A DNA stretch of 64,000 bases from the human T2T-CHM13v2.0 reference genome, Homo sapiens, in the NCBI RefSeq assembly GCF_009914755.1, contig NC_060927.1, one strand, 5' to 3'. The notes under the pieces were generated by a model. The model made no database searches. It was not told the origin of the DNA and was given only the letters and a program-made list of their open reading frames with translations. A program made the position numbers and the translations under genes. Of the stretch, positions 49,271-57,661 are shown piece after piece. Each line of letters begins with the position of its first letter. The first letter of the stretch is position 1.

Positions 49271-50245
49271 AATGTCTTTTTAAAAATTGGGAATACAAAT
49301 GGACAGTTATGACTTTTATTAAATTACTCTTTGTGATTGCGTTAATTATTTGTACCATGAAATTCCAAGTAAAGTACAAAGAAGAACAAAGGAAACATGT
49401 TTTATACACAAAAAAATCAGAGAATTATTTTGAAGCAGTTGTAAAAATATGCAGCAATAATAGGGAATTTCTACTTTTGTGTCTTATCATATGTTCTCCC
49501 CTTATATAACCTCACCAAATGGTCTGATATTGTTAGTTTACACATATTTGATTTTGTTTATTATCAGAGCCATTAGAAGCATAAAGACAACATACCTATT
49601 TTTGGGGAACTTATTCAGTATTTCAGAGATATTTATAATACATATCCTTTGTAAAGTTTTCACACCTAAAACACATGATATTTGTATGGAAAATTTAACT
49701 ACTATGTAGTTCTATATTAATAAATTGCTGTTAATTAGTTTTAGGAAACTAATGGTATGATGTTATTTCTGGGGTTTTCCAGGCTGTAGGATTTTACTGT
49801 TTCAATTGATCTCCTTCCTGTAACTCTTACAATTAGATTACTGAGAGCTAAGGAAAAATAAACAACTCAGTTAAATATATCTTTCAAACATTTTTAAATG
49901 TTCACACTGAATCCTAATTTCTTTTATGTTGCAATCTTATGTGATCGATACAATAAGTGCCTTCGAAGATGTTACTTCACCTCTGTCCCTGGAAGTCTGC
50001 ACCTAAAGTGCTTTTATTATTATTATTATTATTTTTTATTATTATACTTTAAGTTTTAGGGTACATGTGCACATTGTGCAGGTTAGTTACATATGTATAC
50101 ATGTGCCGTGCTGGTGTGCTGCACCCACTAACTCGTCATCTAGCATTAGTTATATCTCCCAGTGCTATCCCTCCCCCCTCCCCCCACCCCACAACAGTCC
50201 CCAGAGTGTGATATTCCCCTTCCTGTGTCCATGTGATCTCATTGT

Positions 50246-53200
50246 TCAATTCCCACCTATGAGTGAGAATATGCCATGTTTGGTTTTTTGTTCTTGCGAT
50301 AGTTTACTGAGAATGATGATTTCCAATTTCATCCATGTCCCTACAAAGGACATGAACTCATCATTTTTTATGGCTGCATAGTATTCCATGGTGTATATGT
50401 GCCACATTTTCTTAATCCAGTCTATCATTGTTGGACATTTGGGTTGGTTCCAAGTCTTTGCTATTGTGAATAATGCCGCAATAAACATACGTGTGCACGT
50501 GTCTTTATAGCAGCATGATTTATAGTCATTTGGGTATATACCCAGTAATGGGATGGGTGGGTCAAATGGTATTTCTAGTTCTAGATCCCTGAGGAATCGC
50601 CACACTGACTTCCACAGTGGTTGAACTAGTTTACAGTCCCACCAACAGTGTAAAAGTGTTCCTATTTCTCCACATCCTCTCCCACACCTGTTGTTTCCTG
50701 ACTTTTTAATGATCGCCATTCTAACTGGTGTGAGATGGTATTTCATTGTGGTTTTGACTTGCATTCTCTGATGGCCAGTGATGATGAGCATTTTTCATGT
50801 GTCTGTTGGTTGCATAGATGTCTTCTTTTGAGAAGTGTCTGTTCATATCCTTTGCCCACTTGTTGATGGGGTTGTTTTTTTCTTGTAAATTTGTTTGAGT
50901 TCTTTGTAGATTCTGGATGTTAGCCCTTTATCAGATGAGTAGTTTGCAAAAATTTTCTCCCATTCTGTTGCCTGTTCACTCTGATGGTAGTTTCTTTTGC
51001 TGTGCAGAAGCTCTTTAGTTTAATTAGATCCCATTTGTCAATTTTGGCTTTTGTTGCCATTGCTTTTGGTGTTTTGGACATGCAGTCCTTGCCCATGCCT
51101 ATGTCCTGAATGGTAATGCCTAGGTTTTCTTCTAGGGTTTTTATGGTTTTAGGTCTAACGTTTAAATCTTTAATCCATCTTGAATTGATTTTTGTATAAG
51201 GTGTAAGGAAGGGATCCAGTTTCAGCTTTCTACATATGGCTAGCCAGTTTGCCCAGCACCATTTATTAAATAGGGAATCCTTTCCCCATTGCTTGTTTTT
51301 CTCAGGTTTGTCAAAGATCAGATAGTTGTAGGTATGCGGCGTTATTTCTGAGGGCTCTGTTCTGTTCCATTGATCTATATCTCTGTTTTGGTACCAGTAC
51401 CATGCTGTTTTGGTTACTGTAGCCTTGTAGTATAGTTTGAAGTCAGGTAGCGTGATGCCTCCAGCTTTGTTCTTTTGGCTTAGGATTGACTTGGCGATGC
51501 GGGCTCTTTTTTGGTTCCATATGAACTTTAAAGTAGTTTTTTCCAATTCTGTGAAGAAAGTCATTGGTGGCTTGATGGGGATGGCATTGAATCTGTAAAT
51601 TACCTTGGGCAGTATGGCCATTTTCACAATATTGATTCTTCCTACCCATGAGCATGGAATGTTCTTCCATTTGTTTGTGTCCTCTTTTATTTCTTTGAGC
51701 AGTGGTTTGTAGTTCTCCGTGAAGAGGTCCTTCACATCCCTTGTAAGTTGGATTCCTAGGTATTTTCTTCTCTTTGAAGCAATTGTGAATGGGAGTTCAC
51801 TCATGATTTGGCTCTCTGTTTGTGTGTTGTTGGTGTATAAGAATGCTTGTGATTTTTGCACATTGATTTTGTATCCTGAGACTTTGCTGAAGTTGCTTAT
51901 CAGCTTAAGGAGATTTTGGGCTGAGACGATGGGGTTTTCTAGATATACAATCATGTCGTCTGCAAACAGGGACAATTTGACTTCCTCTTTTCCTAATTGA
52001 ATACCCTTTATTTCCTTCTCCTGCCTAATTGCCCTGGCCAGAACTTCCAACACTATGTTGAATAGGAGTGGTGAGAGAGGGCATCCCTGTCTTGTGCCCG
52101 TTTTCAAAGGGAATGCTTCCAGTTTTTGCCCATTCAGTATGATATTGGCTGTGGGTTTGTCATAGATAGCTCTTATCATTTTGAAATACGTCCCATCAAT
52201 ACCTAATTTATTGAGAGTTTTTAGCATGAAGGGTTGTTGAATTTTGCCAAAGGCTTTTTCTGCATCTATTAAGATAATCATGTGGTTTTTGTCTTTGGCT
52301 CTGTTTATATGCTGGATTAAATTTATTGATTTGCGTATATTGAACCAGCCTTGCATCCCAGGGATGAAGCCCACTTGATCATGGTGGATAAGCTTTTTGA
52401 TGTGCTGCTGGATTCGGTTTGCCAGTATTTTATTGAGGATTTTTGCATCAATGTTCATCAAGGATATTGGTCTAAAATTCTCTTTTTTGGTTGTGTCTCT
52501 GCCCGGCTTTGGTATCAGAATGATGCTGGCCTCATAAAATGAGTTAGGGAGGATTCCCTCTTTTTCTGTTGATTGGAATAGTTTCAGAAGGAATGGTACC
52601 AGTTTCTCCTTGTACCTCTGGTAGAATTCAGCTGTGAATCCATCTGGTCCTGGACTCTTTTTGGTTGGTAAACTATTGATGATTGCCACAATTTCAGCTC
52701 CTGTTATTGGTCTATTCAGAGATGCAACTTCTTCCTGGTTTAGTCTTGGGAGAGTGTATGTGTCGAGGAATTTATCCATTTCTTCTAGATTTTCCAGTTT
52801 ATTTGCGTAGAGGTGTTTGTAGTATTCTCTGATGGAAGTTTGTATTTCTGTGGGATCGGTGGTGATATCCCCTTTATCATTTTTTATTGTGTCTATTTGA
52901 TTCTTCTCTCTTTTTTTCTTTATTAGTCTTACTAGCGGTCTATCAATTTTGTTGATCCTTTCAAAAAACCAGCTCCTGGATTCATTGATTTTTTGAATGG
53001 TTTTTTTGTGTCTCTATTTCCTTCAGTTCTGCTCTGATTTTAGTTATTTCTTGCCTTCTGCTAGCTTTTGAATGTGTTTGCTCTTGCTTTTCTAGTTCTT
53101 TTAATTGTGATGTTAGGGTGTCAATTTTGGATCTTTCCTGCTTTCTCTTGTGGGCATTTAGTGCTATAAATTTCCCTCTACACACTGCTTTGAATGTGTC

Positions 53201-56319: not shown

Positions 56320-57661
56320 AGACCATCGAGACTAGGAAGTGCTTTTATTATAACTTGTATCATACCCCAGTCTTACTTCACCTTTCAAACAAACGGTCTA
56401 CTAAGAGGTATTCACAGACACTCAAACTTTATCACTCCAGCCATCATCAGTTGAAAAAGTAGTGCTCAAAGGAAGAAAGATATTTTGATTTTTATATTTT
56501 TTGTGCCAGATTTATTTCTTTATTTTGGTGCTCTTATATGTGTTCCTAGCCTTGGTTTAGTAATGGTATTTAGGAAAGGGAGCCAGTGATGTCATACAAT
56601 TAAGTTTCTAAAGGAAACCAGAATTCTCTTCCCCTAGGAGGATGAACTAGAAGGAAAGTGACAAGTGTATGTATAATTCCTTAGCAAACATTGTAATGCT
56701 TTTGTATTATAAACTGACATTTTCTAGGAGTGGTTTCAGGACTAGCTGATTGGTTATTTCATGATTCTTATTCAGTGAGAGTTCTATAGCAAATACTGAT
56801 TTTAAGGAATTAAAATCAAAGTAACTCATGGAGAGAAAGATGTTGACACCTCTGTCTATCTCTTTGATGCTTTAGAAAATACATCTTATACTATTTAAAT
56901 ATTAAAAAATTGAAAAATCTATTTTTCTTTTAGAATTGAAATATATTTCATTGTTTTCTTGTAGGCTCTATCACAGATAATATCCTAACACAGTATCAGT
57001 GAGCTATCTTTTACAAAAAATTGATAACGAGTAAATTATGGACATTAAATTAATAATTCTATTGTTGCAGAATACATGCCCACCTTCTCCTCAACTTCTG
57101 CCTTAATGAAATGCACAATAATGGCTGGCTTACCAGAGTGGCCTGTTGTATGTATATAAACTCTAACTAATGAAAGAAGTGAAAACACTTTGAAAATCTA
57201 CAGACGTGGTATTTCCTTGATCTTTCCATTCAAACTGTTATAGTGGTTCCATCCAGCCCAATAAGCCATCTTTGAAAGTAAACCCGGGGTCAACTCATGT
57301 GAGAGTATGAACGCTATCACAGTGTTGACCTGTAGTTTTTTTAATGTCAGATTATGAATTTATTGATAAAAATAAATAAAATGAGGTCACTAAGCAGACT
57401 ATTTCTAATTTATTTTAGAAAGCATTTTAGAATTTACTTGAGTAAGTTAGTTCTCTGAATTATCAAACTTAATTACTTGAAAACCCACAAAATAGGTACG
57501 GAATGAGACAGCTTAAGTGCCAGGTGTCAGGTAATAGTTCAAAAGAGAACTAAAATGAGCACATAAGCTTTCAAAAAGCACAATATCTGCTTATAGGTTG
57601 CAAAAGGTTGTGTTTTGCAGGATGTGTGTGTGTGTGCGTGTGTGTGATTCCATTGACTGTG

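What the first reader, a model, noticed from the sequence alone, without database searches (positions are those of the whole stretch)
50006..56351. One L1 insertion with the entire 5'UTR+ORF1 flipped, giving a divergent ORF2 / promoter / ORF1 layout
Seen: a single 15-bp TSD brackets 6.3 kb. The 3'UTR and ORF2 lie on minus, while the complete 5'UTR and intact 338-aa ORF1 lie on plus and end in the inter-ORF spacer, sharing a 3-nt microhomology (aag) with the TSD. Known: this is the geometry of twin priming, but twin-primed L1s are usually 5'-truncated. Inference: the sense promoter now drives an ORF1-only transcript reading into the right flank with no L1 poly-A signal. The antisense promoter points through ORF0 into sense ORF2, which is frameshifted although a 619-aa RT frame remains.
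Basis: partly seen in the sequence, partly recalled or inferred. Interest (0 to 1): 0.8.

Follow-up and report, generated by a model that had tools for sequence, protein, structure and literature searches.

The report
Twin-primed L1 with borrowed junction DNA
This is one young L1 retrotransposon insertion whose front third was copied in backwards, an ordinary kind of event, but its inner joint carries DNA borrowed from the doorstep of an older L1 2.8 million bases away, so it looks like a source tag without being one.

Summary
An exact 15-bp duplication (50006-50020, 56337-56351) brackets 6.3 kb. The 3'UTR, ORF2 and the end of ORF1 lie on minus (50021-54235). The 5'UTR, an intact 338-aa ORF1 and the spacer lie on plus (54397-56339). 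Both halves have about 0.65% private divergence and fall in the same young L1 sub-lineage, so this is one event.

New findings:
- The 161 bp between the halves is the 5' flank of an older full-length L1 at chr3:85.218 Mb. It holds the last ~52 nt of an Alu, its A-tail, 80 bp of unique DNA and that L1's own target-site duplication.
- This is not a true 5' transduction. From L1 nt 144 on, the plus half belongs to a younger subfamily (11 of 12 diagnostic columns; AU test p 2e-76). The switch lies within the first 143 nt of the 5'UTR.
- Two more foreign tracts exist. An 84-bp copy of the insertion's own right flank replaces 85 bp of ORF2. A 353-447-bp tract is about 99% identical to an L1 fragment at chr3:131.72 Mb.

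The expression claims could not be tested. This is a known kind of event with an unusual junction; interest is moderate.

The parts
50006..50020 (.). Left copy of the 15-bp target-site duplication. The first nick is inferred after ...TTATTAT / AA on the + strand.
50021..54235 (-). Minus arm (first cDNA): TAA-rich A-tail, 3'UTR, ORF2 and the last ~118 nt of ORF1 with the spacer. ORF2 is open only in pieces: 302, 697 and 182 codons stop-to-stop.
   Evidence: Private divergence outside the special tracts is about 0.64%.
50609..51055 (-). Tract (minimum 50617-50969) sharing 28 variant columns, including two 4-bp and two 1-bp deletions, with an older 1.39-kb L1 fragment at chr3:131723904-131724219 (L070). 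There are only 2 differences inside it. It is the cause of the frame breaks between the 619-aa and 181-aa frames.
   Evidence: All 39 other scored genome hits are at most 95% identical.
53751..53834 (+). 84-bp copy of the insertion's own right flank (donor 57602-57684, same orientation). It replaces 85 bp of the ORF2 endonuclease region. Junction microhomologies are GTTG..AA and TG.
54074..54235 (-). Mutation-dense end of the minus arm next to the inversion junction: 6 private substitutions in about 160 bp. A 5-bp deletion lies at 54032. No donor copy was found in the genome.
   Evidence: Poisson P about 7e-4, post hoc.
54098..54235 (-). Minus-arm copy of the 138-bp duplicated L1 segment (end of ORF1 plus the spacer).
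54236..54396 (+). Non-L1 filler at the inversion junction, copied from the 5' flank of the older L1 at chr3:85218082. It holds the Alu 3' end (54236-54287), the A-tail (54288-54316) and unique DNA (54317-54396), including that L1's own TSD copy AAAATTAACACTGC (54383-54396). 54234-54235 (GC) is microhomology with the minus arm.
54397..54539 (+). First up to 143 nt of the 5'UTR, the interval that holds the switch between donor-derived and young-L1-derived sequence. Variants shared privately with the donor lie at 54418 (a CpG site) and 54439. The first young-type diagnostic base is at 54540.
54397..56339 (+). Plus arm (second cDNA): 5'UTR 54397-55302, ORF1 55303-56319 (338 aa, intact), and the spacer to 56336-56339.
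   Evidence: There are 13 private substitutions in 1943 nt.
54632..54847 (-). 71-aa antisense ORF at L1 nt 236-451. Its position and length fit ORF0; that identity is recalled and was not tested against a reference.
   Evidence: ORF0 in L1HS and L1PA2-8 is described in a passage of PMC4908685.
56202..56339 (+). Plus-arm copy of the 138-bp duplicated L1 segment.
56337..56351 (.). Right copy of the TSD. Its first 3 nt (aag) also fit the L1 spacer, which is the twin-primer microhomology.
57602..57684 (+). Donor of the 84-bp patch, in unique-plus-old-repeat flank 1.25 kb to the right of the target site. It is still present, so the patch is a copy and not a move.

Best explanation
One retrotransposition event of a young L1PA RNA was resolved by twin priming.

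Shown:
- A 15-bp TSD brackets both arms.
- The A-tail abuts the left TSD copy at a TTAT/AA site.
- The inverted arm starts at the other TSD copy with 3 nt of microhomology inside the ORF1-ORF2 spacer and runs to L1 nt 1.
- The other arm runs 138 nt past the twin-priming site, so that stretch is present twice.
- Both arms have the same private divergence and the same nearest relatives.

Inferred: when the second cDNA had reached the first ~40-140 nt of the 5'UTR, synthesis switched by homology onto a template from another locus on the same chromosome. That locus is an older full-length L1 at chr3:85.218 Mb. It stopped there and was joined to the first cDNA through a 2-nt microhomology. The result mimics a 5' transduction but does not mark the progenitor.

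The template could have been RNA. One candidate is a Pol III read-through transcript of that upstream Alu, which has no TTTT terminator until L1 nt 298. It could equally have been the donor DNA itself, by strand invasion and synthesis-dependent annealing. I cannot tell which.

Two further foreign tracts sit in the first-cDNA arm: an 84-bp microhomology-bounded copy of the right flank and a ~350-450-bp homologous tract from an L1 fragment at chr3:131.72 Mb. They arose either in the same error-prone resolution or by later repair or gene conversion. The element was dead on arrival as a transposon.
For: Twin priming:
- The exact 15-mer occurs only at the two ends.
- The junction sequences fit.
- The 138-bp overlap is present.
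- The 15-bp TSD and 3-nt microhomology match published norms. In Kojima 2010, 5'-inverted L1s made up 639 of 2068 species-specific insertions, the modal TSD was 14-16 bp and about 70% had 2-5 bp of microhomology (PMC2912911, passages).

One event from one lineage:
- Private substitutions are 13 of 1943 (plus arm), about 10 of 1570 (middle) and 12 of about 1850 (3' part outside the tract), which is 0.65% overall.
- The plus arm nests with L049, L043, L042 and L051 (98/91*).
- The minus arm without the tract is sister to L017 and sits near L022 and L013 (95/72 and 89/76). L017 and L043 are one element, as are L022 and L042.
- The two overlap copies share a T found in 6 of 20 young copies and 0 of 8 older ones.

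Donor flank:
- The 121-nt junction probe hits only itself and chr3:85217992-85218105, at 99%.
- That locus has a complete Alu upstream, and its L1 has its own 14-bp TSD on both sides.

Not a transduction:
- At 11 of the 12 columns that separate the 20 best hits of the window from the 8 best hits of the donor, the window has the young state and the donor the old one.
- In the tree of columns 144 onward, the window sits inside the young clade (100/97*) and the donor among the older copies.
- Holding the two together costs 83.7 lnL, p-AU 2e-76.
- Two of the three variants shared only by window and donor lie in the first 43 nt.

The first TTTT after the donor Alu's start is at L003:2379, which is L1 nt 298.
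Against: - No outgroup genome could be searched, so single-step origin rests on structure and equal divergence alone.
- The minus-arm copy of the overlap has 5 private changes against 1-2 in the plus copy, and it shares one non-CpG variant (54125 G) with the donor L1 that none of 28 + 12 panel copies has. I treat this as coincidence plus a junction-proximal mutation cluster, but it is unexplained.
- The donor-derived tract differs from the donor at about 10 of 305 positions, where about 4 would be expected from the background rate (P 0.008). Five of the ten are CpG transitions and one lies in an A-run, so this is weak. It leans towards the tract being no younger, and possibly older, than the insertion.
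- The panels were the top-scoring 40 of thousands of candidates, so they are biased towards clean copies.
- The clade tested by AU was named after the column pattern had been seen.
- The evidence that the switch lies beyond nt 42 is one non-CpG and one CpG variant. The chance expectation for such coincidences over the whole arm is about 0.2 by my own estimate.
Confidence: 0.7

Rival explanations
1. True 5' transduction from a progenitor that is absent from this assembly. A young L1 once sat behind the same flank, or the chimera formed earlier at a progenitor locus. Its read-through RNA was then twin-primed here.
For: The filler is contiguous with L1 nt 1 and lies inside the TSDs, as in a transduction. 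The tract's divergence from the donor is, if anything, higher than expected for copying at insertion time. Polymorphic 5'-transducing L1s exist (PMC12350158, passages).
Against: The junction probe finds only two loci in the genome. This reading needs an extra, unseen element and an extra recombination event. The donor L1 that actually sits behind this flank is several subfamily steps older.
Confidence: 0.12
2. The filler and the other tracts are later repairs. An ordinary twin-primed L1 suffered double-strand breaks afterwards, at the junction, in ORF2 and in the ORF2 C-terminal region. Each break was patched by ectopic gene conversion or microhomology-mediated templated synthesis from chr3 donors.
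For: Intrachromosomal gene conversion into an inverted L1, with a 377-bp diverged middle segment 98% identical to a copy on the same chromosome, is in print (Sen 2007, PMC1920257, passage). The L070 tract has only 2 differences in about 370 bp, compatible with a later date (P 0.14 for as few under contemporaneity). All donors are on chr3.
Against: It needs three or four independent hits on one 6.3-kb element, whereas at most 2 of 29 comparable young copies show any similar cluster in 2.2 kb (biased panel). The filler has homology to its donor on one side only. The filler's divergence is not lower than the element's own.
Confidence: 0.15
3. Simple 5' transduction: the whole plus arm, or the whole insertion, was copied from the L1 at chr3:85.218 Mb.
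For: Flank identity is 99%. All pieces align colinearly to that L1 at 95.0-95.9%.
Against: 11 of 12 diagnostic columns disagree. The AU test rejects the pairing (p 2e-76). There are 68 donor-only against 13 window-only differences (binomial p 4e-10), and many of the donor-only states are shared with older copies. The window and that L1 share no private variant in the 3' 2.2 kb apart from one position in the A-tail.
Confidence: 0.02
4. Two independent insertions, or a post-insertion inversion of the 5' third of a normal full-length L1.
For: None specific. The 5% difference between the overlap copies first suggested two elements.
Against: A single TSD brackets both arms, and the inverted arm has no tail and no TSD of its own. 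Private divergence and nearest relatives are the same for both arms. An inversion would need one break exactly at the insert/TSD border and would not give a 138-bp duplication.
Confidence: 0.02

Closest known systems
Twin-primed (5'-inverted) L1 insertions (Ostertag and Kazazian 2001, recalled and not held; Kojima 2010, PMC2912911, passages read)
   Same: A single TSD, an A-tail at an endonuclease-like site, an inverted 5' arm that starts with microhomology at the other TSD copy, microhomology at the inversion junction, and a duplication at the junction.
   Different: The inverted arm reaches L1 nt 1 and goes beyond it. The junction holds 161 bp of non-L1 filler. The duplication is 138 bp long.
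L1 5' transduction
   Same: Non-L1 sequence directly upstream of L1 nt 1, inside the TSDs, matching the upstream flank of a full-length L1 elsewhere, including that L1's own TSD copy.
   Different: The L1 body attached to it does not descend from the L1 that owns the flank. Here the tag misidentifies the source.
Chimeric L1s and L1 gene conversion. Chimeras between a new cDNA and endogenous L1s in cultured cells (Symer 2002; Gilbert 2002 and 2005) and break repair from endogenous LINEs (Tremblay 2000) are recalled or seen only in reference lists, not read. Sen 2007 locus NCLI34 was read as a passage (PMC1920257).
   Same: Homology-guided joins between L1 copies of different age. Same-chromosome donors. 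A diverged internal tract of a few hundred bp inside an inverted L1.
   Different: Three donors contributed to one element.
Chimeric retrocopies made by template switching, or by twin priming on a second RNA (U6/L1, tRNA/L1, Alu/L1; Cell Genomics 2026, PMC13174262, passages)
   Same: A second template contributes the 5'-most part of an insertion inside one TSD pair. Alu-containing RNA is a candidate partner.
   Different: In those chimeras the switch is to the end of an unrelated RNA. Here it lies at a homologous position inside the L1 5'UTR, and only the last ~52 nt of the Alu are present.

Membership tests
Twin-primed L1 insertion | One target-site duplication brackets both oppositely oriented L1 segments | tested here: met
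   An exact 15-mer lies at 50006-50020 and 56337-56351 and nowhere else in the window, even with up to 2 mismatches.
Twin-primed L1 insertion | The 3' segment ends in an A-tail next to a TSD copy at an L1 endonuclease-like site | tested here: met
   A TAA-rich tail starts at 50021. The target reads ...TTTTATTAT/AA. The consensus TTTT/AA is quoted in PMC2912911.
Twin-primed L1 insertion | The inverted segment begins at the other TSD copy with microhomology to an internal L1 site | tested here: met
   aag is shared between the spacer and the TSD at 56337-56339.
Twin-primed L1 insertion | The two segments are adjacent in L1 coordinates, with a small deletion or duplication, and are joined with microhomology | tested here: met
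   A 138-bp duplication is present. GC microhomology lies at 54234-54235 between the minus arm and the filler. The join is to filler, not directly to L1.
Twin-primed L1 insertion | Both segments are copied from one RNA | tested here: inconclusive
   The segments have equal private divergence and the same nearest elements. The overlap copies differ at 7 of 138 positions, with 5 private to the minus copy.
L1 5' transduction | Upstream non-L1 sequence inside the TSDs matches the 5' flank of a full-length L1 | tested here: met
L1 5' transduction | The L1 body descends from the L1 that owns the flank | tested here: not met
   11 of 12 diagnostic columns disagree. The AU test gives p 2e-76.
Interlocus L1 gene conversion or chimeric L1 | A bounded tract whose variants match one other copy and not the element's own lineage | tested here: met
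   The tract at 50617-50969 has 28 shared variant columns, 2 differences from L070, and 4-13 differences per 100 bp outside it. The first 43 nt of the 5'UTR plus the flank match the chr3:85.218 Mb locus.
Interlocus L1 gene conversion or chimeric L1 | Timing: after insertion (conversion) or during integration (chimera) | not testable with these tools
   This needs orthologous loci in apes. The genome tool states it holds no relatives of this genome.
   No RNA data were available. Only sequence features were checked: the ORFs, 35 CpGs kept in the first 906 nt against 37-41 in three close relatives, and the hexamer list.

The most novel reading that the evidence does not exclude
All the odd features are scars of one unusually 'jumpy' integration. 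While copying one L1 RNA from both ends of the break, the polymerase left its template three times. First, it moved by homology onto an L1-bearing template from chr3:131.7 Mb and came back. Second, it moved by microhomology onto the resected single strand of the right-hand flank 1.25 kb away and came back; the polarity fits, because the first cDNA is the + strand and resection would expose the minus strand there. Third, it moved by homology onto a Pol III read-through RNA of an Alu that runs into an old L1's 5'UTR, producing a false 5' transduction. If this is general, some 5'-transduction tags used to trace L1 sources would point to the wrong element, and Alu read-through RNAs would be recombination partners of L1 cDNA.
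Probability: 0.2. Interest if true: 0.65.

Novelty: new variant of a known kind. Interest (0 to 1): 0.42.

Why it matters
Transduced flanks are used to trace which L1 copies are active progenitors. This locus shows that a flank tag can be acquired through homology in the 5'UTR from an older L1 that did not father the insertion, so a tag alone can mislead.

The locus is also a fixed germline example of how untidy the resolution of L1 integration intermediates can be. One element carries a duplication, filler from a distant locus, a patch templated from its own flank and a homologous tract. This complements recent cell-culture and cancer-genome work on remodelling of L1-induced breaks (bioRxiv 10.1101/2024.12.14.628481, passages).

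The divergent ORF2 / promoter / ORF1 layout is a curiosity until transcripts are shown.

Tried and rejected
1. I first read the 5% difference between the two overlap copies as evidence for two elements of different age. I rejected this after polarising each difference against the donor and the panels and finding equal background divergence in both arms.

2. I then read the filler as a plain 5' transduction from chr3:85.218 Mb. I rejected this when the donor-only and window-only differences came out at 68 against 13, the donor-only states proved to be shared with older copies, and the tree and AU test separated the two.

3. I looked for private variants shared between the minus arm and the donor in the 3' 2.2 kb. 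There were none apart from one tail position.

4. I took the cluster of 16 private substitutions at 50674-50962 for a post-insertion mutation cluster or cDNA editing. The spectrum showed no G-to-A excess. A genome search then found the 99% donor.

5. I searched for a donor of the mutation-dense 54074-54235 stretch. The best hits were 96-97%, so no donor was found.

6. The other L1 in the window (16489-18307) is not the donor of the tract; it is 91.7% identical there.

7. The first tree of the minus arm left its position unresolved. Dropping the tract's columns resolved it.

9. Ostertag and Kazazian 2001, Gilbert 2005 and Tremblay 2000 are not held, so statements about them are recalled.

10. 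Four literature searches gave no description of a twin-primed L1 whose junction filler is the flank of an older L1 captured through 5'UTR homology. This covers only the open-access library and is not proof of absence. Supplementary tables of PMC12350158 and PMC13174262, which I did not open, may list such cases.

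
Full report
**Observation.** The 15-mer AAGTGCTTTTATTAT occurs exactly twice in the 64-kb window, at 50006-50020 and 56337-56351, with no other match at up to 2 mismatches.
- Directly right of the left copy, the + strand reads the reverse complement of an L1 3' end behind a TAA-rich A-tail.
- Directly left of the right copy, the + strand reads the ORF1-ORF2 spacer...gagactaggaag, whose last three bases are also the first three of the duplication.
- ORF1 is intact (338 aa, 55303-56319, +).
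- On minus, ORF2 survives as frames of 293, 619 and 181 aa, or 302, 697 and 182 codons stop-to-stop.

- The two arms overlap. 56202-56339 (+) and 54235-54098 (-) are the same 138 nt of L1 and differ at 7 positions.
- The 161 bp between the arms (54236-54396) is not L1. It holds the last ~52 nt of an Alu, an A-tail and 80 bp of unique DNA.
- 53751-53834 inside ORF2 is not L1 either. It is a same-orientation copy of 57602-57684, in the flank 1.25 kb right of the target site.
  - It replaces 85 bp that the related L1 has at that place.
  - Its junction microhomologies are GTTG..AA and TG.
  - Part of the donor belongs to an old dispersed repeat, but no other genomic copy covers the patch; the best partial hits are 77-90%.

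**Twin priming.** The target reads ...GCTTTTATTAT/AACTTG, so the + strand was nicked at TTAT/AA and primed the first cDNA on the tail.
- The minus-strand end ...GCACTT-3', 15 nt to the left, paired through CTT with AAG of the spacer and primed the second cDNA, which ran to the RNA's 5' region.
- The first cDNA ran 138 nt past the twin-priming site, which produced the duplication.
- TSD length and microhomology lengths are typical of 5'-inverted L1s. In Kojima 2010, 639 of 2068 species-specific insertions were 5'-inverted, the modal TSD was 14-16 bp, and about 70% had 2-5 bp of microhomology (PMC2912911, passages).
- Duplications at the inversion breakpoint are shown for polymorphic human insertions (PMC12350158, figure legend).

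**The filler and its donor.** A 121-nt probe across the filler and the start of the L1 finds only itself and chr3:85217992-85218105, at 99%.
- At that locus a complete Alu, its A-tail and the same unique sequence precede a full-length L1.
- That L1 has its own 14-bp duplication, AAAATTAACACTGC, on both sides.
- The window therefore carries a copy of that L1's upstream flank, including its TSD copy (54383-54396), joined seamlessly to L1 nt 1. This looks like a 5' transduction.

**It is not one.** All window pieces align to the donor L1 at 95.0-95.9%, but the differences are lopsided.
- Against the 20 best genomic hits of the plus arm, 68 differences are donor-only and 13 are window-only (binomial p 4e-10).
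- Adding the 8 best hits of the donor shows that many donor-only states are shared with those older copies.
- At 11 of the 12 columns that separate the two panels, the window has the young state and the donor the old one.
- In a maximum-likelihood tree of columns 144 onward:
  - the window sits deep inside the young clade (100/97*), with an end branch of 0.0066;
  - the donor sits among the older copies, with an end branch of 0.027;
  - forcing the two together costs 83.7 log-likelihood units (p-AU 2e-76; the group was named after the columns had been seen).
- Three variants are shared only by window and donor, and two of them lie in the first 43 nt: 54418 (a CpG site) and 54439 (non-CpG).
- The first young-type marker is at 54540.

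The plus arm is therefore a chimera. The flank plus the first 1-143 nt (probably at least 43) come from the old locus, and the rest comes from a young L1.

**One event, one lineage.**
- Private substitutions are 13 of 1943 (plus arm), about 10 of 1570 (52180-53750) and 12 of about 1850 (3' part outside the tract), which is 0.65% throughout.
- The plus arm's nearest relatives are L049, L043, L042 and L051.
- Without the tract's columns, the minus arm is sister to L017 and sits beside L013 and L022. L017 and L043 are one genomic element, and so are L022 and L042.
- With ORF1 at about 0.67% divergence, an intact frame is unremarkable (my estimate).
- The subfamily name was not tested. By divergence the element is older than human-specific copies and younger than the donor.

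**The third foreign tract.** Sixteen of the 28 private substitutions in the 3' 2.2 kb fall within 290 bp.
- A genome search with 50660-50975 gives one hit at 99%, chr3:131723904-131724219, and 38 others at 93-95%.
- That locus holds a 1.39-kb 5'-truncated L1, 94.6% identical to the window copy overall.
- It shares 28 variant columns with the window between 50617 and 50969, including two 4-bp and two 1-bp deletions, with 2 differences inside the tract.
- Outside the tract the window follows its own lineage, while the fragment keeps differing at 3-13 positions per 100 bp.
- The fragment is therefore the donor. The tract is 353-447 bp long and accounts for the frame breaks near the ORF2 C-terminus.
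- A close precedent is in print: a diverged 377-bp middle segment in an inverted L1, explained by intrachromosomal gene conversion (Sen 2007, PMC1920257, passage).

**Other breaks in ORF2.** These are a 5-bp deletion at 54032, the 84-for-85-bp patch, and a 1-bp insertion at 53007.

**Unexplained.** The 160 bp of the minus arm nearest the junction carry 6 private substitutions (P about 7e-4, post hoc).
- No donor was found in the genome; the best hits are 96-97%.
- One of these variants (54125 G) is shared only with the old donor L1.
- Error-prone synthesis at the end of the first cDNA is a possible cause, but nothing shows it.

**Mechanism of the switch.** The second cDNA is complementary to L1-sense sequence, so its foreign template was the sense strand of the donor, either RNA or DNA.
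- An RNA candidate exists. The upstream Alu has no TTTT on its sense strand until L003:2379, which is L1 nt 298. A Pol III read-through transcript could therefore span the Alu, the flank and the first 298 nt of the old 5'UTR, which covers the whole copied tract and the switch interval. That the Alu's promoter boxes look intact is my reading from memory.
- Strand invasion of the donor DNA by the cDNA end, followed by release and a 2-nt microhomology join, explains the data equally well.
- For the 84-bp patch the polarity fits a first-cDNA excursion onto the minus strand of the right flank, the strand that 5' resection of that break end would expose. This is inference.
- Remodelling and resection of L1-induced break ends are documented experimentally (bioRxiv 10.1101/2024.12.14.628481, passages).
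- Twin priming on a second RNA has been proposed for antisense chimeras (PMC13174262, passages).

**One event or several?** At most 2 of the 29 young comparison copies show any comparable cluster of private variants in 2.2 kb, and both of those clusters may be alignment-end effects.
- Three foreign tracts plus a mutation cluster in one element therefore suggest a common cause.
- The panel is biased towards clean copies, and timing cannot be settled without ape orthologues.

**Function.**
- The 5'UTR keeps 35 CpGs in its first 906 nt, against 37-41 in three close relatives and 23 in the old donor.
- A 71-aa antisense ORF lies at L1 nt 236-451.
- Antisense transcription would run through the filler into sense ORF2.
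- Hexamers AATAAA and ATTAAA occur downstream on both strands.
- No RNA evidence could be consulted, so the expression claims stay open.

**Verdict.** This is a real, single, twin-primed L1 insertion of a known kind. Its inner junction holds a false 5' transduction acquired through 5'UTR homology, and the element carries two further templated tracts. It is a new variant of a known kind and of moderate interest.

Noticed in passing
window 16489-18632: A second twin-primed L1 in the same window. The 3' arm at 16489-18307 is 94.8% identical to the studied element. An inverted 330-bp arm lies at 18303-18632. Direct repeats ATTCAATGAAAA flank it, and CATTC is shared between the L1 and the repeat.
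   Followed up: partly
L003 (chr3:85216001-85226000) 2082-7884: The older donor L1 lacks about 285 bp that the window copy has (window 52233-52516), and it has about 25 extra bases at L003 5013-5039. Its 5'UTR has lost many CpGs: 23 against 35-41.
   Followed up: partly
window 57659-57714: The right part of the patch donor belongs to an old dispersed repeat, with at least 30 partial matches genome-wide at 80-97%. The family was not named.
   Followed up: no
window 53768-53800 and 57622-57648: The (GT)n run inside the patch is longer than in its donor and starts differently. This is the only real difference between patch and donor.
   Followed up: no
L058 (chr7:49845391-49847331) and L060 (chr3:38590650-38592590): Two comparison L1 5' halves on different chromosomes are identical over the 1801 columns used for the tree.
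   Followed up: no
L070 (chr3:131717501-131725500): The donor of the 353-447-bp tract is a 1.39-kb truncated L1 that lies in a dense cluster of at least six Alu copies.
   Followed up: no
window 54370-54585 (-): A second 71-aa minus-strand ORF starts in the 5'UTR and ends inside the borrowed flank, so it is a product of the chimera. There is no evidence that it is used.
   Followed up: no
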